Source: a virus
Taxonomy: Duplodnaviria; Caudoviricetes
Virus record (IMG/VR): IMGVR_UViG_3300028888_000107
Coordinates: 14,598 to 78,597 of that record
Length of the DNA: 64,000 bases
Direction: 5' to 3' (one strand)
A program made the translations under genes and the position numbers. Shown piece after piece: positions 3,819 through 64,000 of this stretch. The notes under the pieces are model-generated. The model was not told the DNA's origin. It did no database searches and saw only the letters and a program-made list of their open reading frames with translations. Position 1 is the stretch's first letter, and the number at the start of each line of letters is the position of its first letter.

Positions 3819-3920
3819 ATCTTTGTTGTTTTAATTACAGTGCAAAAATACAAAACTTTTTAATATATGCAACTAAAAAACAAAAAAGTTATTAACAAAG
3901 ATATCAACAATACACTACAA
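3816..3920 (-). promoter_or_regulatory. early promoter cassette P2
   Basis: TTG-N19-TATTTTTG(3843-50); boxes 3889-97 and 3901-09; near-identical to P1. Confidence 0.85.
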
Positions 3921-19824: not shown

Positions 19825-20286
19825 TTAGTTATATCTTCTTTCGTACATCCCTTTAGGTGCTTCAAGAGCTAACCCTTTTTCTATCAAACCATTGTAATCA
19901 AGATGACTTTTGTTGTAAAATTGCACCATTTCGTACGTCCTTTTCGCAACTGCTTTTTGAAGAAGATGTCTTCTTTCATTATCGTCTTTTATTTGTTGGA
20001 CTTTTTTGACCAAAGTTTCTAAAAATTCACTCTCTATATCTGAAAAAACTTTTTGTTCATCCTCTGTCATACTTGACATCGGACGTAGATAGGGAATATA
20101 GTTATCCGAATAAGTGGAACCCATTTCATCCGTGAAATAGAAATTACCGTCTTCAAACATTCCAGACAATTTCATATCTTCTTCCACTAATCTACCATCC
20201 TTCTTATGTACAACACTACATATTACCCTATAAGGAAACATTGCGCATAAGAGTTTATTTAAAAGTTCTTTTTCTTCTTTATTCAT
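19825..20286 (-). CDS. phage family protein (EEKE.L.K.LC...PYLRPMSSMT...HLDYNGLI..GLALEAP.GMY)
   Basis: Paralog of 21993-22388 and of both ends of 24377-25051. Confidence 0.75.
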   Translation of the reverse strand: MNKEEKELLNKLLCAMFPYRVICSVVHKKDGRLVEEDMKLSGMFEDGNFYFTDEMGSTYSDNYIPYLRPMSSMTEDEQKVFSDIESEFLETLVKKVQQIKDDNERRHLLQKAVAKRTYEMVQFYNKSHLDYNGLIEKGLALEAPKGMYERRYN

Positions 20287-20470
20287 ACCTATATGGTTTT
20301 ATTGTATAATATTCATCAGCATAATCATAAGGGTATCTTTTCATTTCTTCGCATTTTTTATGCAATGCCAATTTTGCCGCATTGTGCGATGGAAATGATT
20401 CAACAAACACCCCGTTGCAATACATAGCCCAAGGTTTTGGTTCGTACAATTTTTCTTTTTTATTGTTCAT
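20279..20470 (-). CDS. hypothetical protein
   Basis: Start set at MNNKKEKLY. Confidence 0.55.
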   Translation of the reverse strand: MNNKKEKLYEPKPWAMYCNGVFVESFPSHNAAKLALHKKCEEMKRYPYDYADEYYTIKPYRYE

Positions 20471-20726
20471 TTTCATTTTCACCATCAACAATTTCACACA
20501 ATATAACATCATAATCATCAAAACAAGATGTGCTATGAACCATTATTTCGTTACCGCAATCTGGACAAATTACATAATCTTTACACAAAGGACGACTATG
20601 CAACAGGTCACCGTTACAGTAAGCATCTTTATCAACAAAAGAAAACACACAGCCGCATTCATCGCATCTTGTTGTTATTTCTTTGCCTTTAGGCATTTGG
20701 TTCCCGTGTTTTACCACTTTAATCAT
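20460..20726 (-). CDS. small zinc-ribbon protein
   Basis: CDECG...ICPDCG. Confidence 0.65.
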   Translation of the reverse strand: MIKVVKHGNQMPKGKEITTRCDECGCVFSFVDKDAYCNGDLLHSRPLCKDYVICPDCGNEIMVHSTSCFDDYDVILCEIVDGENENEQ

Positions 20727-20775
20727 AATTTTTGTTTATATTGTAAAAATTTGTTTAGACATATATTTTAGCCCG

Positions 20776-21027
20776 CTATAACTTTTTGCTTTTTTGTTCG
20801 CAAAAGTTTTTAAAAGCACCAACAAAACAATCAATCATAAGGGGTGTCATTTCGCTATACGTTGGCAAATTATCCATTAACCAATCACATGCACCATCAA
20901 CGTCAAAAAGCCCGTTTCTGGGGTGTCTGTCCGCCCACTCAACACCCTTTTCGAAACAGGCTGCCCTTCCCATTTTTGTTGAGTAAACAAACTTGGATAA
21001 CTTTTTTACATTTTCTTTTCTTGCCAT
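20776..21027 (-). CDS. hypothetical protein, tandem paralog of 21006-21275
   Basis: G..WAD.HP..GL.D.D.AC.WL...F.G.FKNFCE shared. Confidence 0.65.
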   Translation of the reverse strand: MARKENVKKLSKFVYSTKMGRAACFEKGVEWADRHPRNGLFDVDGACDWLMDNLPTYSEMTPLMIDCFVGAFKNFCEQKSKKL

Positions 21028-21275
21028 AATTCTTTGTTTCTTATTTCGCAAAAGTTTTTAAATCCTCCCACAAAGTATTCAACGGCTGTTATTGGCATTA
21101 AATTGTACGCCTTTAAACTATCAATTAGCCAAAGGCAAGCAGCATCAATATCAACAAGCCCGCTTTTTGGATGTTCATCTGCCCATTTAATACCTTGACG
21201 ATATGACTCTTTATCTACACCCGCTTTTAGGAATGCGTCACGTGTTGCCAAATTAATTTCATCTTCCCTTGTCAT
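21006..21275 (-). CDS. hypothetical protein, tandem paralog of 20776-21027
   Basis: Shared motif as above. Confidence 0.65.
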   Translation of the reverse strand: MTREDEINLATRDAFLKAGVDKESYRQGIKWADEHPKSGLVDIDAACLWLIDSLKAYNLMPITAVEYFVGGFKNFCEIRNKELWQEKKM

Positions 21276-21278
21276 AGT

Positions 21279-21380
21279 TTACCGATAAATGTAATCATAA
21301 TAGTTGTAGGCAAACCCCGTCCAAAAATAGCGGTAGCCGTTCCAAACCAAATCACCGTTGCAAGCAGTATAAATGCACAT
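21279..21380 (-). CDS. 33-aa aromatic-rich peptide
   Basis: MCIYTACNGDLVWNGYRYFWTGFAYNYYDYIYR*, fills the gap exactly (3 nt from each neighbour). Confidence 0.45.
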   Translation of the reverse strand: MCIYTACNGDLVWNGYRYFWTGFAYNYYDYIYR

Positions 21381-21383
21381 AAC

Positions 21384-21623
21384 CTACTTCTTTGTTTGTT
21401 GTTCGCAAATCTTTTGAATTAGTTCCTCCTGTTCCTTTTTGCGTCTTTCTTCGCAATACTTGCAGTTTCCCTTGTGTGCAAGTTTGTATCCGGTGCTAAT
21501 GTATTCGCAATTATCAATTACAACAATTTTACCGCCCCACGGAATATTGTTGTAACTTGTACCAACTTGATAGCATCCCGTTAACAACATTGAAATCAAA
21601 ATAAAAACCATTATCTTTTTCAT
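21384..21623 (-). CDS. lipoprotein
   Basis: MKKIMVFILISMLLTGC lipobox. Confidence 0.7.
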   Translation of the reverse strand: MKKIMVFILISMLLTGCYQVGTSYNNIPWGGKIVVIDNCEYISTGYKLAHKGNCKYCEERRKKEQEELIQKICEQQTKK

Positions 21624-21627
21624 ACCT

Positions 21628-21930
21628 TTAATTTTTAAGGTTTTTGCTATTTTTTCTTTTTTGCAGCCAATCTATGATTTTAAACGATACCTTTGCAAGA
21701 ATAATGACCAATGCCACATACAACGCCACATTAAGCAGTATAAGGCAACCAAACAAAACAAGGTTTGGTTCAAGTTTCAAAATTTTGTATTGCAAAAACA
21801 CAAACAAAGCGGTTGCGATACAAAACGAAACAACAACACCCAAGCATCCACGCATTTCATCTTTGTTGTGCGGGTTTAAGTCAGGTATGTCATCGGGGTT
21901 ATAGGAAGCCCAAGGAAACACAGGTATCAT
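21628..21930 (-). CDS. membrane protein
   Basis: Two hydrophobic helices and a basic C-tail. Confidence 0.65.
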   Translation of the reverse strand: MIPVFPWASYNPDDIPDLNPHNKDEMRGCLGVVVSFCIATALFVFLQYKILKLEPNLVLFGCLILLNVALYVALVIILAKVSFKIIDWLQKRKNSKNLKN

Positions 21931-21992
21931 ATTGTTTGCTTTTATTCGGTTAAATCAAGAAAATGTTCAACAAAGTTGGGTATTTCGCCAAA

Positions 21993-22388
21993 TTAGTACA
22001 TTCCCTCAGGTGCTTCCAATGCCAACCCCATTGCAATTAAGCCGTTGTAATCAAGGTGGTGTTCGTTGCAATAGTGAATGAACTCAGCCATTTGTCCCCA
22101 AGCGGCAGGCGACCAACCATCGCCATAGTTTTCGTTTTCAATAATGTTTAGGCATTGTTGAAAATTATCCCTTTCTTCTTGTGTCATACTTGACATTGGA
22201 CGCAAGTATGGTTTAAACTGTTCACCAACGTGGCAGGTCAATCCCCCGTTTGTAACAATAAACGGGTATTCGGAAAGGCAGATTGTTTTGATTGTGTCGA
22301 TTTTCTTTCCGAGAGCCAATCCCTTGACACCGTACTGTGCTGTTTCGCACAGCGATTTCAGTAATATTTCTTTTTCTTCTTTTGACAT
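21993..22388 (-). CDS. phage family protein (paralog of 19825-20286)
   Basis: MSKEEKEILLKSLC...KPYLRPMSSMT...HLDYNGLIAMGLALEAPEGMY. Confidence 0.75.
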   Translation of the reverse strand: MSKEEKEILLKSLCETAQYGVKGLALGKKIDTIKTICLSEYPFIVTNGGLTCHVGEQFKPYLRPMSSMTQEERDNFQQCLNIIENENYGDGWSPAAWGQMAEFIHYCNEHHLDYNGLIAMGLALEAPEGMY

Positions 22389-22399
22389 ATTTTTGTGTT

Positions 22400-22579
22400 T
22401 TAATTTTGGCTAATTGCAAACAAGTTTTTCCATCCAAAAAGGGTTAGTTTTTGTCCAACCGCTTTTTCTATGTTTGGACTAAATTGGCAAAACGTGGCAT
22501 TGTAATCCAAGTCTTCATAATCTTCGTAATAATGCTTTCTTGTTAAGCCGCATTTTGTTGTTACAACAAGTCTATACAT
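22400..22579 (-). CDS. small hypothetical protein (59 aa)
   Basis: MYRLVVTTKCGLTRKHYYEDY...AISQN*, fills the gap. Confidence 0.55.
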   Translation of the reverse strand: MYRLVVTTKCGLTRKHYYEDYEDLDYNATFCQFSPNIEKAVGQKLTLFGWKNLFAISQN

Positions 22580-23747: not shown

Positions 23748-24206
23748 TTATTTTTTCATATAAGACAATTTTGACGATAAATCGTTTGCCATTAAATCAT
23801 CGTTGTTATCCTTAAGCATTTTAAGTTTGCAATCAATGGGAAACTTAACAATGTTATCAACATTATCCTCGCCAATTATTTCGGCAAGTTTTTCGGCGGT
23901 TTTTTGAACAATGCTGTTGATTATGCCTTTGTAAACAACAAAGCCAAATGCATCAATGATTTTGTGTTCGCTTTTAATGTTGCTCCACACATTTGCAATA
24001 ACGGTGTTGTATTGGTCGCAATCGTTTTGCGTAAACTTGATTTCGACCTCCTTTGCAACCAATTCCTTGTTGTACAAGGTTATGCAAACATCGTTATCCC
24101 TTCTATCCGCCAAATGGGAAAAGATGTAGGAATTGTTGATGTTAAGGTAATCGCAAGTTTCATCTGCCGCCATAAAAAGGGCTGCTTGTCTGTCTTTATT
24201 TTCCAT
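23748..24206 (-). CDS. hypothetical protein, tandem paralog of 23366-23737
   Basis: Shared motifs as above. Confidence 0.65.
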   Translation of the reverse strand: MENKDRQAALFMAADETCDYLNINNSYIFSHLADRRDNDVCITLYNKELVAKEVEIKFTQNDCDQYNTVIANVWSNIKSEHKIIDAFGFVVYKGIINSIVQKTAEKLAEIIGEDNVDNIVKFPIDCKLKMLKDNNDDLMANDLSSKLSYMKK

Positions 24207-24363
24207 ATCCTTTGTTTTTTAATTGTTGTTTTTTCAATTCAATTTCAAGGTACTTTACTTTTTCTTCCAATTCAATGGCACGAGCCTTTAGTTCATCCCT
24301 TTCTTTTATAATTTCAAGCATAATAGCCATTGTGCTTTGGTTTTGCAATTCCTTGTGTTCCAT
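24196..24363 (-). CDS. small coiled-coil protein
   Basis: Start set at MEHKELQ; heptad pattern. Confidence 0.55.
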   Translation of the reverse strand: MEHKELQNQSTMAIMLEIIKERDELKARAIELEEKVKYLEIELKKQQLKNKGYGK

Positions 24364-24376
24364 AATGGCAATGTGT

Positions 24377-25051
24377 TTATTTGTACATATCTTTAGTGGT
24401 TTCCAAGACAAGTCCTTTTTTAATCAATCCATGATAGTTTAAATGGTCACTGCTATCAAAGGCGGACCTTGTGGATTATGTTGCGGTTAAAATTAAACAA
24501 TTCCTCCTTGTTGCAATTGCCCTTAAATCTTCGGCAATTTGCTTTATGTTCATATAGGTGTTTTCCGAGTTGGGGTTGCGGTAGTTACGCATAATGTTAA
24601 TATAGTCAATAACCACAACGTGTATCTTAAACCCTTCCGTATCTTCAATTTGCTTAATGTGATTTTCCAAATCAATGGTGGTGCAACAACTTGTGGGGTA
24701 TTCCTTTATAAAAAGCCTGCCCAACGGGATAAGTTGCTTCCTTCTAAATTCTTGAAGCCTTTTACCCATCCTTTCATCATCATTGGATATACTATCATAA
24801 TCCTTCATATCAATATCCAAAACATTTGCACCTATTCTTTTTATAACCTTTTTGTCACTCATCTCGCAAGTTACAAAAAGAACATTTTTACCGGCTTTCA
24901 TAAAGTTGGCGGCATCGTTGCACAAAAATATTGAGTTAGATAGAATTCGATCAATCGCTGCGAAATCTTGGCAAAACGAATCACCGGTTGGTGTGTGCGG
25001 CACCCTCATGCAAAGGTTTTTTAACAGCCATTCTTTATCTTCTTGTTTCAT
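24377..25051 (-). pseudogene. chimeric gene: phage-family N-terminus + linker + gp41 helicase core fragment + phage-family C-terminus, with internal TAA at 24476-24478
   Basis: MKQEDKEWLLKNLC...SIFLCNDAANF...VVIDYI...ILTAT*STRSAFDSSD-HLNYHGLIKKGLVLETTKDMYK*, one reading frame throughout. Confidence 0.8.
24447..24577. repeat. near-exact dispersed copy of helicase gene segment 63870-64000
   Basis: 129/131 nt identical (differences 24478/63901 and 24566/63989); may extend to about 24936 beyond the window edge. Confidence 0.95.
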
Positions 25052-25059
25052 ACCACTTG

Positions 25060-25142
25060 TTTTTAATTACACCGCAAAAATACAAAACTTTTTAATATAT
25101 GCAACTTTTGCTACAAAAAAGTTATTAACATTGTTATTAACA
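25060..25142 (-). promoter_or_regulatory. early promoter cassette P4
   Basis: TTG-N19-TATTTTTG(25075-82); boxes 25122-30 and 25134-42. Confidence 0.85.
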
Positions 25143-25155
25143 TAACCAAAATTGG

Positions 25156-26505
25156 TTACAATTCAAAAAGGTTACGCAATTTCTCCTCAGGCATATCATA
25201 CAAATCCTTTGGGTTAAATTCAGTGTCGTTAAAGCCACCGGTGTCTGTACACAACTTTCCATCGCACCACTTTTCGGCATATTCAACCATTCTGTCAATT
25301 TGTCGCTTTGTTAACGGCTTATCACGCAGTGCATAGCCACAAGCAACAAGTTCATAGCCCAAAAAGCGTATTTTGCCAAAATGGAAGCGAACCCATCCAG
25401 CCTTATCAATGGCATAGTCCTTGTTGTAATCCTTATCATAGGCAGGGAGGTATTCGCCAACACCATGCTTTTCGTACAAGGCGTCAGCCAATTCAACGTG
25501 TATAAGGGGTGATTCATTCATTCCCATTGCATATACATTGCCATAAGGGTCAATGTATCCCGCCTCCCAATGGTCATCAAAGGTAACGGGTTCCGCAAGG
25601 TCTCTTTTCTTTTGGGTTTCTTTTTTCTTGGCAATTTCCTTGTTGATTTTGTTGGTGTTTGCTTCCATTGCGGTTTCGCCTCTAACCATATCTTCCACCA
25701 CAACATCCGCAACTTTGTTATAACCGTTTTTGTAAAACAACTCGTTTAGTTTATCCAAGTTTTCAACATCGTACAAAAGCAAAAGGTCGTAAAGTTTTTT
25801 AAAGTCCTCGTACTCTTTTTTATAATCGTTGTATTCGTATGATGGTACACTGTCAGGTCCAAACTTAAAGCCAAAGTTTTTTTGAAACCATTCAACCATT
25901 GGGATAAACTTTTCCGAATCTTCAACAAAGGTTTTAAGGCAATCCAAATCCATAAACCTATCATAAATTCTCCTGTTAAACAACGGTTGCGTATCACCGT
26001 GTTCCAAAATGTTTAACGCTTCCCTATCGTTTTCTTTCCAAACCCTTATAATATCCCCTGCTGTTATCTTAATGCTTCCGCTTATCTTTCCAACAGGGAC
26101 GCTAACACCAAAAAGTTCAAGCAAATCTTTATCATCCAAATCAACAGTGTAAACACATTCTTTGGCAAAGGTGTCCATTATTTTTTTTCTTAAAGCATCA
26201 CGGTATTTGTAATCGTTGTTAAAAAGATAATGCTTAACATAGCCAACATAATCGCTTTCGTTGTACATTGAAAGTTCCTCTTGGCTTAACACTTCCTTTT
26301 TGCAAATGCCCATTCTTGTATCGCTTTCTGTTTTAAGAAAAAGTTCGTTTTTAAGAATCGGCAAAACGTATTGTTTTGGAACACCGGAATCCGTCAAGGT
26401 TTTAACAGCCCATTCTGGATTTTTGTCATAATAAAGGTGTTCGTTTGCTATGTTTTGCAAAACAATTCCAAGATTTTCCCCAAGTGTAAAATGCAAGGTT
26501 TCCAT
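25156..26505 (-). CDS. hypothetical protein
   Basis: 449-aa ORF. Confidence 0.75.
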   Translation of the reverse strand: METLHFTLGENLGIVLQNIANEHLYYDKNPEWAVKTLTDSGVPKQYVLPILKNELFLKTESDTRMGICKKEVLSQEELSMYNESDYVGYVKHYLFNNDYKYRDALRKKIMDTFAKECVYTVDLDDKDLLELFGVSVPVGKISGSIKITAGDIIRVWKENDREALNILEHGDTQPLFNRRIYDRFMDLDCLKTFVEDSEKFIPMVEWFQKNFGFKFGPDSVPSYEYNDYKKEYEDFKKLYDLLLLYDVENLDKLNELFYKNGYNKVADVVVEDMVRGETAMEANTNKINKEIAKKKETQKKRDLAEPVTFDDHWEAGYIDPYGNVYAMGMNESPLIHVELADALYEKHGVGEYLPAYDKDYNKDYAIDKAGWVRFHFGKIRFLGYELVACGYALRDKPLTKRQIDRMVEYAEKWCDGKLCTDTGGFNDTEFNPKDLYDMPEEKLRNLFEL

Positions 26506-26725: not shown

Positions 26726-26818
26726 ATCTTTATTGTTTTTAATTACACCGCAAAAATACAAAAATATTTTATATATGCAACTTTTTATGAAAAAAAGTTA
26801 TTAACAAAGTTATTAACA
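26726..26818 (-). promoter_or_regulatory. early promoter cassette P5
   Basis: TTG-N19-TATTTTTG(26751-58); boxes 26798-806 and 26810-18. Confidence 0.85.
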
Positions 26819-27640: not shown

Positions 27641-27804
27641 TTTGCTTTATCCAACATTTGTTGTTCTTTCCATTTAGCCATATCAATTAAGGCATCATAT
27701 ACATCCTGAGCAAGGTCTTTGTTATGGTGGTTTATGTCGCACCACTTTTGAACCAATTCCTTTGCCTTTTGTTCATCCGTCATATTCATTTTGCAATTTT
27801 TCAT
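27577..27804 (-). CDS. hypothetical protein in cassette 1
   Basis: MKNCKMN + MTDEQKAKEL core + DKKLSETIEYAEKNGFFPTM. Confidence 0.65.
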   Translation of the reverse strand: MKNCKMNMTDEQKAKELVQKWCDINHHNKDLAQDVYDALIDMAKWKEQQMLDKAKDKKLSETIEYAEKNGFFPTM

Positions 27805-27896
27805 AACTTTATGTTTTTAATTACACCGCAAAAATACAAAACTTTTTAATATATGCAACCACTTAAACAAAAAAGTTATTAACAAACTTATCAACA
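27805..27896 (-). promoter_or_regulatory. early promoter cassette P6
   Basis: TTG-N19-TATTTTTG(27829-36); boxes 27876-84 and TTATCAACA 27888-96. Confidence 0.85.
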
Positions 27897-28562
27897 TTTA
27901 ACACATCTAACACCCATTGCCAAAGCTCTTGCACCAAAAGCACCGACAACATTTGCCCCTTTGTGCCAAATCCTAATAAACCAAGTATATTCATCGCTAT
28001 CTTGGTATTCATCGGAACACCATAGATGTGAAGTGATGCCAAGTGGATTCTTTGTGTTTATGGAATAACCGTTTGGGTATATGTTTAAGTTTGTTTCGTT
28101 GTTTGTTTCTGCATTCCTACCAACGCTGTTTTCTACATCGCTTTTTAGCCAATCATTGTTTGAACAAATTGCCTTTGCGGTGTGTGCCAAATAAGGACGC
28201 ATTTCTTCTTTGTTTAGGTTATGTTCACCTTTGCCCAAAAAAGTTAAAAGTTCTGTCCAATCGTTAATGGCGGTAACACGCCAACCCTTTGGGGCAAGCA
28301 ATTCCGTGTCAACCGCCTCAAAATTGTAATGCAAACCGTAATTGGGCAACCTGCTTGACTTTGGCGTTAAGTTACCGGGGTATTCATAATAGGGTAGTTT
28401 GCCAAGTTCGGATGTGGCGTATGTGTTAAGGGGTGTGCCATCGTTTAACCGTGTAACCCTCAAATTGGAAGCCAACCATAACTTGTTGTTGATGTTAACG
28501 GCATCATAGATATTGCCATCAATATCGGTTACTGCGTTTCTTATCAATTCAAAATTTTTCAT
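27891..28562 (-). CDS. FISUMP (Fibrobacter succinogenes major paralogous, CLec-like) domain protein
   Basis: TDIDGNIY..V.I....WLASNLR, YGLHYNF, LAPKGWRV....DW, LWCS, GVRCVK. Confidence 0.85.
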   Translation of the reverse strand: MKNFELIRNAVTDIDGNIYDAVNINNKLWLASNLRVTRLNDGTPLNTYATSELGKLPYYEYPGNLTPKSSRLPNYGLHYNFEAVDTELLAPKGWRVTAINDWTELLTFLGKGEHNLNKEEMRPYLAHTAKAICSNNDWLKSDVENSVGRNAETNNETNLNIYPNGYSINTKNPLGITSHLWCSDEYQDSDEYTWFIRIWHKGANVVGAFGARALAMGVRCVKC

Positions 28563-28574
28563 AGTAACAAAATC

Positions 28575-28637
28575 AATGTGGCAAAAATACAAAATATTTT
28601 ATATAGGCAACCACAAACAACAAAAAAGTTATTAACA
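28575..28637 (-). promoter_or_regulatory. early promoter cassette P7
   Basis: TTG-N18-TATTTTTG(28582-89); box 28629-37. Confidence 0.8.
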
Positions 28638-34093: not shown

Positions 34094-34175
34094 TTTTAAT
34101 TACACTGCAAAAATACAAAAATATTTTATATATGCAACCTTTTAGCAAAAAAAGTTATTAACAAAGTTATCAACA
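34094..34175 (-). promoter_or_regulatory. early promoter cassette P8
   Basis: TTG-N19-TATTTTTG(34108-15); boxes 34155-63 and TTATCAACA 34167-75. Confidence 0.85.
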
Positions 34176-63442: not shown

Positions 63443-64000
63443 TTAAAAAGGCATATCCCCTTGTGTGGGTTCGCCCGCTTTTTTCTCTTTTTTAAGTTCC
63501 CTTATGTCCCTTACTTTGATTTTACCGCCACCAAAGTTTTCATCTGTATCGTTTTCCCATTTATCCTTGTTGGGTTCTATTTTTTTCATAGGTTCAACCT
63601 TCTTTGTTTTTATTTTGGTGGTTGGTTTGCTATCGGGAACAGATGAACTTCCATCTTCATTTATAATTATACCGTTTTCATTTAAACGCATTTTTCGGTA
63701 TTCAATGTCCAACCCCATTTTGCTGTTTTTGCCAAAGCCATCCCTTATTTTTAGCATCTTTAAGAAGTACTCGTTGTTCATTTTTTGTTCATCATCTTGT
63801 ATGATGCCGTAAACAGTATCCGATGTTGCAACAAGACCCATACTTTCGGCAACTTGCGACAATGTTATATCACTGCTATCAAAGGCGGACCTTGTGGATT
63901 GTGTTGCGGTTAAAATTAAACAATTCCTCCTTGTTGCAATTGCCCTTAAATCTTCGGCAATTTGCTTTATGTTCATATAGGTGTTTTCAGAGTTGGGGTT
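63443..64000 (-). CDS. gp41: replicative helicase (T4 gp41/DnaB-like), 3' part
   Basis: IKQIAEDLRAIA...ILTATQSTRSAF...VAESMGLVATSD...LKIRDG; runs off window end. Confidence 0.9.
   Translation of the reverse strand, partial: NPNSENTYMNIKQIAEDLRAIATRRNCLILTATQSTRSAFDSSDITLSQVAESMGLVATSDTVYGIIQDDEQKMNNEYFLKMLKIRDGFGKNSKMGLDIEYRKMRLNENGIIINEDGSSSVPDSKPTTKIKTKKVEPMKKIEPNKDKWENDTDENFGGGKIKVRDIRELKKEKKAGEPTQGDMPF

What the first reader, a model, noticed from the sequence alone, without database searches (positions are those of the whole stretch)
24377..25051. In-frame chimera: a copy of the phage's own helicase core inside an early-gene shell
Seen: the gene starts MKQEDKEWLLKNLC and its frame ends HLNYHGLIKKGLVLETTKDMYK*. 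These are the conserved ends of paralogs 19825-20286 and 21993-22388. The middle is replaced by a gp41 helicase segment from just after the Walker A Lys (SIFLCN) through Walker B (VVIDY) to ATQSTRSAFDSSD. Bases 24447-24577 match the real helicase at 63870-64000 at 129/131. Both junctions keep frame. One of the two differences is CAA-to-TAA at the conserved Gln of ATQ, which truncates the product at 191 aa. The gene sits first behind early promoter P4. Inference: a recent capture event yields an early-expressed, ATP-binding-deficient helicase fragment. It could act as a decoy for host sensors of replication proteins, as a dominant-negative competitor, or be a repair scar.
Basis: partly seen in the sequence, partly recalled or inferred. 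Interest (0 to 1): 0.8.

Follow-up and report, generated by a model that had tools for sequence, protein, structure and literature searches.

The report
Helicase gene fragment inserted into mini-gene
One strain of a large T4-like rumen phage has copied 489 bases of its own replication-helicase gene into a tiny early gene, and this looks like a recent DNA-repair or replication scar, now carrying a stop codon, not a new functional device.

Summary
The sequence observation holds. Window 24377-25051 (-) is one reading frame: 39 and 22 codons of a small early-gene family enclose 489 nt (163 codons) of the phage's own gp41/DnaB-type helicase. A TAA sits at the conserved motif-H3 Gln codon.

It is not a paralogue whose middle was swapped. 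At this exact locus, relatives carry either an intact 131-aa family member or a 61-codon "mini" allele that is the shell alone. The chimera equals the mini allele plus a clean 489-nt insertion.

The donor helicase gene is itself split at Walker A (GK|S) by an atypical split intein. The insert starts at the first C-extein codon. There the intein's last codons (CAT AAC) share TAAC with the target, and a second ATAAC follows the other end of the tract.

The allele is seen in one strain only: two identical JGI contigs, plus two ENA contigs inferred from gene geometry. It differs from working helicase alleles at 7 or fewer of 489 bases. It lacks Walker A, the C-terminal third and the N-terminal domain.

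Best reading: a recent microhomology-guided templated insertion, a scar that disrupted a dispensable mini gene. Decoy or dominant-negative roles are untested and unsupported. Other first-reader notes (unchecked) describe the same split-intein helicase arrangement in other genomes.

The parts
24377..25051 (-). Whole chimeric reading frame: 224 codons plus the family's own stop, interrupted by one TAA
   Evidence: It is 100% identical in a second JGI contig, L002.
24935..25051 (-). 5' shell: codons 1-39 of the 61-codon mini allele of the early-gene family
   Evidence: Three of 117 bases differ from the mini allele in L029-L034. Residues 1-19/21 align with family members.
24446..24934 (-). Insert of 489 nt (163 codons), copied from the helicase C-extein (nt 361-849 of the 1275-nt helicase C-part gene)
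   Evidence: Identity is 456/492 to L001 and 475-482/489 to helicase alleles L003-L037. blastn against mini-allele contigs breaks at window 24935 and 24447.
24476..24478 (-). Premature TAA at the motif-H3 Gln codon (CAA in every helicase allele)
24377..24445 (-). 3' shell: codons 40-61 of the mini allele plus its stop; in frame but downstream of the TAA
   Evidence: One of 69 bases differs from the mini allele. It is 55-57% identical to the paralogues' C-termini.
25057..25142 (-). Repeated early-promoter cassette: two TGTTAATAAC repeats and a Bacteroidota-type TAnnTTTG element
   Evidence: At least 7 copies lie in the window at 81-90% identity. The element is nearly identical upstream of the intact alleles in relatives.
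63443..64000 (-). Resident helicase: C-terminal 185 codons, cut by the end of the contig 131 nt into the duplicated tract
   Evidence: At protein level it is identical to the tail of P0211 and P0217.
21993..22388 (-). Family paralogue, 131 aa, intact
   Evidence: It is absent from mini-allele relatives L029 and L030.
19825..20286 (-). Family paralogue, 153 aa, intact
24196..24363 (-). Next gene downstream (55 aa), conserved in all relatives; the gap to the chimera's stop is 113 nt, against 14 nt after the intact or mini allele

Best explanation
This is a real, strain-specific, recent insertion. A 61-codon mini allele of a variable early-gene family received exactly 489 nt copied from the phage's own gp41/DnaB-type helicase gene.

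The copy was probably made by microhomology-guided template switching, or by synthesis-dependent repair of a break. The departing strand ended in TAAC in the mini gene. It paired with the TAAC formed by the last two intein codons (CAT AAC) of the helicase C-part gene, copied the first 163 C-extein codons, and returned to the same spot next to a second ATAAC.

The result stays in frame but is not a working helicase or a working family member. It has no Walker A loop, no C-terminal third of the RecA-like core, no N-terminal domain, and a TAA at the H3 Gln. The family's invariant central motif was already missing in the mini allele. The family's C-terminal motif is no longer translated.

The most likely consequence is simple disruption of a dispensable mini gene.

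Shown: the anatomy, the three alleles at one locus, the junction sequences, the recency, and the missing motifs. Inferred: the switching mechanism and the lack of function.
For: 1. **Three alleles at one locus**, between the same 449-aa and 55/152-aa genes:
   - a 131-aa intact member (L016-L019, L022-L024, L026);
   - a 61-aa mini allele, identical in 6 contigs read out of 8 found, from ENA, Logan and NCBI sources;
   - the chimera (window and L002).
2. **Clean insertion.** The chimera's shell (117 + 69 nt) matches the mini allele at 182/186. No target base is lost or duplicated beyond a 1-2 nt ambiguity.
3. **Junction motifs.** TAAC lies immediately left of the insert in both target and donor. 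The donor gene has only 5 TAAC and 3 ATAAC in 1275 nt, and two ATAAC bracket nt 361-849 exactly.
4. **Recency.** There are 7 differences in 489 from helicase allele L037. Two of them (152 and 205) also occur in another helicase allele (L001), and the isoleucine that one of them encodes is also in P0001, P0221 and P0222. In the 131 nt that can be compared with the resident gene, apart from the terminal junction base the only copy-specific change is the stop.
5. **Missing parts.**; the family alignment gives invariant P63, L65, R66 and P67, which the shell lacks.
6. **Rarity.** No untruncated or other insert-bearing version was found in two very large protein collections.
7. **Not an assembler product.** Neither junction shares a long k-mer with its partner. 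A second JGI contig is 100% identical over 14.7 kb. Two contigs of ENA assembly ERZ27257205 reproduce the gene geometry on both sides, including the 113-nt gap created by the TAA, and overlap by about 139 nt inside the tract, as expected where a k141 assembly meets a repeat.
Against: - The ENA contigs gave gene coordinates but no DNA.
- The JGI, ENA and Logan records may come from the same or related samples.
- A simple TAAC-to-TAAC switch predicts a 494-nt insert, not 489. The right junction therefore needs either a 5-nt loss or a return with only 0-2 nt of pairing.
- Both junctions keep frame (about 1 chance in 9), and the gene keeps an intact early promoter. An expressed 191-aa product is therefore possible, and its activity was not tested.
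- With so few mutations, selection cannot be measured.
Confidence: 0.7

Rival explanations
1. It is a functional, early-expressed helicase fragment. The 191-aa product would act as a decoy for a host sensor of replication proteins, as a poison or regulatory subunit of the helicase hexamer, or as a partner for helicase-binding proteins.
For: - Both junctions are in frame.
- The early promoter cassette is intact and nearly identical to that of the intact alleles.
- The fragment starts exactly where the natural C-extein polypeptide starts.
- The tract contains Walker B and most of the RecA-like core.
Against: - It is confined to one strain, and close relatives do without it.
- One of the very few copy-specific changes is a nonsense codon, and no untruncated form exists in the databases searched.
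- It lacks the N-terminal domain and the C-terminal part of the core (profile positions 174-255). From general knowledge of DnaB-family structures, these carry most inter-subunit contacts and the arginine finger, so entry into hexamers is doubtful.
- All four shell differences from the mini allele change the amino acid.
Confidence: 0.15
2. The polarity is reversed. The chimera is the older form, and the 61-codon mini allele arose from it by deletion of the helicase tract.
For: - A 2-nt AC repeat flanks the tract in the chimera and could support a slippage deletion.
- The mini allele lacks the family's central motif, so it is itself a derived form.
Against: - The deletion would have to remove the helicase-derived bases exactly, within a 4-nt window on the left and 1-2 nt on the right, leaving none behind.
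- The mini allele is the commoner form and occurs in lineages 4-7% diverged in the flanks. The tract is still about 99% identical to current helicase alleles, so it is too young to predate them.
Confidence: 0.06
3. The breakpoints were set by a site-specific nuclease, not by chance microhomology. Candidates are the endonuclease associated with the split intein cutting an intein-free helicase allele at its insertion site, or a nuclease or transposase that acts next to (A)TAAC.
For: - The left end of the insert coincides with the intein/extein boundary to within the 4-nt TAAC.
- ATAAC brackets the tract exactly in the donor, and TAAC precedes the insertion point in the target.
- A T5orf172/GIY-YIG-type endonuclease gene is present or absent next to the helicase C-part among relatives.
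Against: - Given use of TAAC, the intein boundary is 1 of only 5 possible sites in the gene, so the coincidence is weak.
- Cutting on the same side of both ATAAC copies predicts 494 nt, not 489.
- No Y1 transposase or TnpB is on this contig.
- The TnpB element of relative L038 sits next to a different flank, not TAAC.
Confidence: 0.06
4. It is an assembly or library artefact: a chimeric contig that joins helicase reads into the early gene.
For: - The window's contig ends inside the duplicated tract.
- No reads could be examined.
- All records may derive from related samples.
Against: - The two junctions share at most 4 nt with their partners, too little for a de Bruijn mis-join.
- The copy differs from the resident helicase.
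- The same structure occurs in a second JGI assembly and is implied by two contigs of a k141 ENA assembly.
- A contig break inside a 489-nt near-identical repeat is what a true duplication produces.
Confidence: 0.03

Closest known systems
Templated insertions by microhomology-mediated template switching or synthesis-dependent break repair (FoSTeS/MMBIR-type events; illegitimate recombination in T4-type phages). This comparison is from general knowledge, not tested here.
   Same: - A few hundred bases are copied from an ectopic site in the same genome.
- Microhomology at the junction is very short (TAAC).
- The strand returns to the point of departure with no loss of target sequence.
- The donor is left intact.
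   Different: - The exact product is 5 nt shorter than a simple TAAC-to-TAAC switch predicts.
- The insert is codon-exact at both ends.
- The enzymes and the initiating lesion are unknown.
Modular shuffling in hyperplastic early regions of T4-type phages through repeated promoter cassettes (PeSLs): Arbiol et al. 2010, PMC2839356; Comeau et al. 2014, PMC4122927
   Same: - Small early genes sit behind near-identical promoter cassettes.
- Close relatives differ by presence, absence or replacement of single genes at fixed positions. Examples are three alleles at this locus, and paralogue 21993-22388 missing in L029/L030.
   Different: - The junctions of this event lie inside the coding sequence and do not use the promoter repeats.
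- The inserted DNA is a piece of an essential core gene, not an accessory cassette.
Fractured gp41 helicase genes with split inteins (Dassa et al. 2009, PMC2677866) and atypically split inteins with a long C-part, such as VidaL (PDB 6vgv)
   Same: - The donor gene encodes about 120 aa of intein C-part ending in His-Asn, followed by Ser and the helicase core.
- A profile of it matches VidaL (E=1.3e-7), the gp41-1 intein and T4 gp41 (E=2.7e-48).
- An endonuclease gene lies nearby.
   Different: - The chimera itself contains no intein sequence and cannot splice.
- The interruption is at Walker A GK|S. The paper's cyanophage-like gp41 genes are fractured at a point given as position 356 of P-SSM2 gp41. 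That equivalence was not tested here.
- The N-part of the helicase is not next to the C-part and was not found.
Truncated or Walker-A-defective subunits of hexameric helicases acting as dominant negatives, and phage decoy proteins (from general knowledge)
   Same: A fragment of a replication protein could be made early in infection.
   Different: - The domains that hold DnaB-type hexamers together are missing.
- There is a nonsense codon.
- It occurs in a single strain.
- No binding or protection was tested.

Membership tests
DnaB/gp41-type replicative helicase (Pfam PF03796 DnaB_C) | Match to the RecA-like core above the curated threshold | tested here: met
   48.3 bits against a cut-off of 27, but only profile positions 35-173 of 255. 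phrog_19 matches at E=5e-32.
DnaB/gp41-type replicative helicase (Pfam PF03796 DnaB_C) | Walker A loop G-x-x-x-x-G-K-S/T | tested here: not met
   Only the final Ser is present. Contiguous homologues P0034 and P0035 show the loop ending ...VGK immediately before it.
DnaB/gp41-type replicative helicase (Pfam PF03796 DnaB_C) | Walker B (hydrophobic run followed by Asp) | tested here: met
   VVVIDY is present in the product.
DnaB/gp41-type replicative helicase (Pfam PF03796 DnaB_C) | Motif H3 Gln and the C-terminal third of the core (H4, arginine finger) | tested here: not met
   The Gln codon is TAA. The tract ends 10 codons later, and profile positions 174-255 are absent.
DnaB/gp41-type replicative helicase (Pfam PF03796 DnaB_C) | N-terminal domain and linker | tested here: not met
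   The product starts with 39 aa of the early-gene family. No N-terminal helicase sequence exists anywhere on the contig.
Small early-gene family (window 19825-20286 and 21993-22388; 131-aa orthologue in relatives; weak phrog_10841) | Conserved N-terminal segment (invariant M1, L9, L13, C14) | tested here: met
   Residues 1-19 are 58-68% identical to the orthologues.
Small early-gene family (window 19825-20286 and 21993-22388; 131-aa orthologue in relatives; weak phrog_10841) | Central motif with invariant P63, L65, R66, P67 (PYLRPMSSMT region) | tested here: not met
   It is absent from the chimera and already absent from the 61-codon mini allele.
Small early-gene family (window 19825-20286 and 21993-22388; 131-aa orthologue in relatives; weak phrog_10841) | Conserved C-terminal segment (H-x-D-Y ... 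G-L-A-L-E-A-P ... M-Y) | tested here: inconclusive
   It is encoded in frame at 24377-24445 (12-15 of 22 identical to family members) but lies behind the TAA, so it is not translated.
Split-intein fractured gene (applies to the donor helicase, not to the chimera) | Hint-fold C-part ending His-Asn, followed by a Ser/Cys/Thr nucleophile at a conserved site of the host protein | tested here: met
   P0211 and P0001 end the 120-aa N-terminal part with SHN|S. The profile matches VidaL at 1.3e-7, plus the gp41-1, DnaX and NrdJ-1 inteins. The Pfam Intein_splicing score of 29.9 bits is below the 35.8 cut-off.
Split-intein fractured gene (applies to the donor helicase, not to the chimera) | A separate N-part gene carrying the N-extein with Walker A and the short N-intein | not testable with these tools
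   It was not found on the 78.6-kb contig (33% of the genome by CheckV) or within 10 kb of the C-part in relatives.
IS200/IS605-type insertion next to a fixed tetranucleotide | A TnpA or TnpB gene in the genome, and a target motif equal to TAAC | tested here: not met
   No PF01797 or PF07282 match on the contig. The TnpB element of relative L038 is flanked by a different sequence.

The most novel reading that the evidence does not exclude
The mini gene's TAAC site is a preferred landing site. A phage nuclease, or the split-intein/endonuclease system of the helicase, generated the codon-exact C-extein fragment. The resulting early-expressed, ATP-blind helicase piece is kept because it titrates a host sensor or a helicase partner. 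That would be a natural route by which a phage makes decoys out of its own core genes.
Probability: 0.05. Interest if true: 0.7.

Novelty: new member of a known kind. Interest (0 to 1): 0.3.

Why it matters
The case is unusually well resolved. Donor, empty target and product are all available, so the junctions can be read base by base. That makes it a clean natural example of how a T4-like phage can copy part of an essential gene into its variable early region, and of how such a duplicate breaks metagenome assemblies.

It also serves as a caution. An in-frame chimera behind a strong promoter invites functional stories. Here, comparison with relatives shows a young, strain-limited, already truncated insertion.

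The by-product may be of more practical interest. The helicase of this phage group is interrupted at Walker A by an atypically split intein with a long C-part, a rare class valued for protein engineering.

Tried and rejected
**Searches that found nothing or could not run**
- **Relatives in phage and viral collections:** no match in GenBank phages. IMG/VR scans with the chimera and with the 449-aa neighbour found nothing.
- **Exact junction patterns:** not found in viral or metagenome contigs.
- **Function of the shell family:** Pfam found nothing and PHROGs gave only a weak hit of unknown function. The protein atlas returned only viral hypothetical clusters. The AlphaFold model has mean pLDDT 42.8, too poor for a fold search.
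- **Sigma-70 promoter and terminator scan:** no better than shuffled sequence.

**Ideas tested and dropped**
- **Shell N-terminus (39 aa) as a short C-intein** (it ends ...LSN before Ser): rejected. Residues 1-19/21 align with the early-gene family, the Leu and Ser codons differ from those of the helicase intein, and the mini allele reads ...LPN followed by His.
- **261-aa gene upstream of the helicase C-part as the missing N-part:** rejected; it is a membrane protein.
- **Two strong hits to the 39-aa query (P0233, P0235):** repeat proteins in which a weak match is multiplied many times, so spurious.
- **IS200/IS605-type mobilisation next to TAAC:** rejected.
- **Complex prediction with the helicase:** not run, because no binding claim is made.

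Full report
**What is in the window**

The minus-strand frame 25051 to 24377 reads 224 codons with a single TAA at 24476-24478, so the called ORF is 24476-25051, 191 aa. Its middle scores 48.3 bits against DnaB_C, covering profile positions 35-173 of 255, and matches phrog_19, DnaB-like helicase. Its first 14-19 residues and the last 22 codons of the frame resemble two small genes at 19825-20286 and 21993-22388. Bases 24447-24577 match 63870-64000 at 129/131. Upstream lies one of at least seven copies of a roughly 90-nt early-promoter cassette with a Bacteroidota-type TAnnTTTG element.

The window is the last 64 kb of a single 78,597-base IMG/VR contig. The contig is linear and about 33% complete by CheckV, so the genome is roughly 240 kb. 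The helicase at 63443-64000 runs off the end of the contig, and no other helicase DNA is present.

Near-identical helicase genes were recovered from many rumen assemblies (P0211 and relatives; loci L003-L012 and L035-L037). They encode 424-426 aa. The first 120 aa are not helicase; they end in Ser-His-Asn and are followed by Ser. A profile of this family matches the atypically split intein VidaL (E=1.3e-7), the gp41-1, DnaX and NrdJ-1 inteins over positions 10-122, and T4 gp41 (PDB 8dtp, E=2.7e-48) over positions 120-380 (single sequence). Contiguous homologues read ...VGK immediately before the same Ser.

The phage's helicase is therefore a fractured gene, split inside Walker A (GK|S) by a split intein with a long C-part. 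This arrangement is known from Dassa et al. 2009 (PMC2677866), and other first-reader notes describe it in other genomes. That is why the copy "starts just after the Walker A Lys": it starts at the first codon of the C-extein.

**The locus in relatives**

The 449-aa gene upstream of the chimera served as an anchor.

- In relatives 94% and 80% identical in that protein, the next gene, at the same offset and behind the same promoter, is an intact 131-aa member of the small family. The same 55-aa and 152-aa genes follow it.
- A search of 1.84 billion representative proteins with only the 39-aa N-terminal shell found a 61-aa protein, P0234. It is the shell alone: the same 39 residues joined directly to the same 22.
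- P0234 sits at the same locus in 8 contigs from ENA, Logan and NCBI sources. The gene is identical in all 6 contigs whose DNA was read.
- The chimera's shell differs from this mini allele at 4 of 186 bases. blastn of the window against those contigs breaks at 24935 and 24447.

The chimera is thus the mini allele plus 489 nt, with no target base lost. The reverse order, deletion of the tract from an older chimera, would need a deletion that removes exactly the helicase-derived bases. It would also need a tract older than the 4-7% divergence of the flanks, while the tract is about 99% identical to current helicase alleles. I consider it unlikely.

**Junctions**

- Target: ...CCTAAC|CATTT.
- Product: ...TCTAAC|TCAATA ... 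AGTGAC|CATTT.
- Donor...CCATAAC|TCAATA ... AGTGAT|ATAACATT.

The left junction has a 4-nt microhomology, TAAC, which in the donor is part of the intein's terminal His-Asn codons. The helicase C-part gene has only five TAAC and three ATAAC in 1275 nt. Two ATAAC lie at nt 356-360 and 850-854, bracketing the copied nt 361-849 exactly.

Both ends therefore seem to have been set by this short motif, as in template switching or synthesis-dependent break repair. The coincidence with the intein boundary largely reduces to use of one of five available sites. A simple TAAC-to-TAAC event predicts 494 nt, and the product is 489 nt with the last base changed. The right junction is thus not fully explained.

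An IS200/IS605-type mechanism was considered because such elements insert next to a fixed tetranucleotide. The contig has no TnpA or TnpB, and the TnpB element of relative L038 has a different flank.

**Age and decay**

- Against the closest helicase allele (L037) the tract differs at 7 of 489 positions: six C-to-T changes on the coding strand, plus the last base.
- Two of the six (positions 152 and 205) are shared with another helicase allele, L001. The isoleucine that one of them encodes is also in P0001, P0221 and P0222.
- Four of the six are synonymous third positions, so most were probably inherited from the donor.
- In the 131 nt where the resident gene is visible, the only changes peculiar to the copy are the CAA-to-TAA stop and the last base of the tract at the junction. 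The other difference is peculiar to the resident gene.
- No untruncated version and no other insert-bearing version was found.

**Is it real?**

Neither junction offers the long shared k-mers that a graph mis-join needs. A second JGI contig (16,991 bp, metagenome 3300032030) is 100% identical over 14.7 kb, including the chimera.

In ENA assembly ERZ27257205, one contig runs from the 449-aa gene 546 nt into an open gene at the chimera's position and stops. A second contig starts 168 nt before a stop that lies 113 nt upstream of the 55-aa gene. That is the chimera's spacing; the intact and mini alleles give 14 nt. The two contigs overlap by about 139 nt inside the tract, as expected where a k141 assembly meets a repeat. 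The window's own contig also ends inside the tract.

These records may stem from related samples, and I could not examine reads. Some doubt therefore remains.

**Function**

The product has no Walker A loop, no H3 Gln, no C-terminal third of the core and no N-terminal domain. From general knowledge of DnaB-family structures, those parts carry the nucleotide site and most contacts between subunits. Helicase activity is therefore excluded, and entry into hexamers is doubtful.

The family's invariant central motif is missing, and its C-terminal motif lies behind the stop. The allele is confined to one strain.

I conclude that it is most likely a young scar that disrupted a dispensable mini gene (confidence about 0.7). 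An expressed fragment with some activity is the main rival (about 0.15). Nothing here tests expression or binding.

**Novelty**

Templated insertions and shuffling in the variable early regions of T4-type phages are known (PMC2839356, PMC4122927). This is a well-documented new instance, not a new kind of system.

Noticed in passing
window 63443-64000 (-); L003:10001-11275; L001:2739-4019: The phage's replicative helicase is a fractured gene. The C-part starts with about 120 aa of intein ending SHN, followed by the Walker A Ser. Its best structural relatives by sequence are the atypically split intein VidaL and the gp41-1 intein. The N-part (N-extein plus a short N-intein) is not adjacent and was not found. 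More than 30 protein clusters of 394-443 aa among the best hits probably share this layout; the intein part was checked in about 14 of them.
   Followed up: partly
L004:8801-9124, L006:5463-5786, L007:3554-3877 (present); L003, L005, L009, L012 (absent): A 107-aa T5orf172/MUG113 (GIY-YIG-like) endonuclease gene is present or absent near the helicase C-part among otherwise near-identical relatives. It lies just beyond a 261-aa membrane-protein gene and behaves like a mobile homing endonuclease gene.
   Followed up: partly
window 64000 (contig end); ENA ERZ27257205 contigs: The 489-nt duplicate appears to break assemblies. The IMG/VR contig ends 131 nt into the tract on the helicase side. Two ENA contigs end and start inside the tract on the chimera side. 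The record is only about 33% of a genome of roughly 240 kb.
   Followed up: partly
window 24446-24934 compared with L037:1861-2349: All six internal differences between the copy and the closest helicase allele are C to T on the coding strand, including the stop. This could reflect deamination of single-stranded DNA during the copying event or on the non-template strand of a highly transcribed gene. It could equally be inherited from the unseen resident allele.
   Followed up: no
window 25057-25142, 26733-26818, 27799-27897, 2072-2157, 3829-3909, 34094-34175, 28581-28637: A repeated early-promoter cassette has two TGTTAATAAC direct repeats, a GTTGCATATAT block and TATTTTTG (the TAnnTTTG type of Bacteroidota). 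It points to a Bacteroidota host and to a shared regulator site.
   Followed up: partly
window 19825-22579; L029:8168; L026:10260-10646: Family members come and go as cassettes. Both paralogues of the window are missing from mini-allele relatives L029 and L030. L026 has a member whose N-terminal part resembles the 131-aa orthologue's and whose C-terminal half is almost identical to paralogue 21993-22388, which suggests recombination between family members.
   Followed up: partly
L038:3142-4618: A 1,477-nt TnpB-only element (455-aa OrfB_IS605/Cas12f-like protein) interrupts a 214-aa gene in one relative. Clean empty sites exist in L002, L023 and L029, with a 3-nt ambiguity (ACC) at the junction.
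   Followed up: partly
window 25156-26505 (-): A 449-aa early protein has no Pfam or PHROG match, and a search of 5.8 billion protein clusters found only 7 related clusters. It is 80-94% conserved in the close ones, so it is a lineage-restricted gene of unknown function.
   Followed up: no
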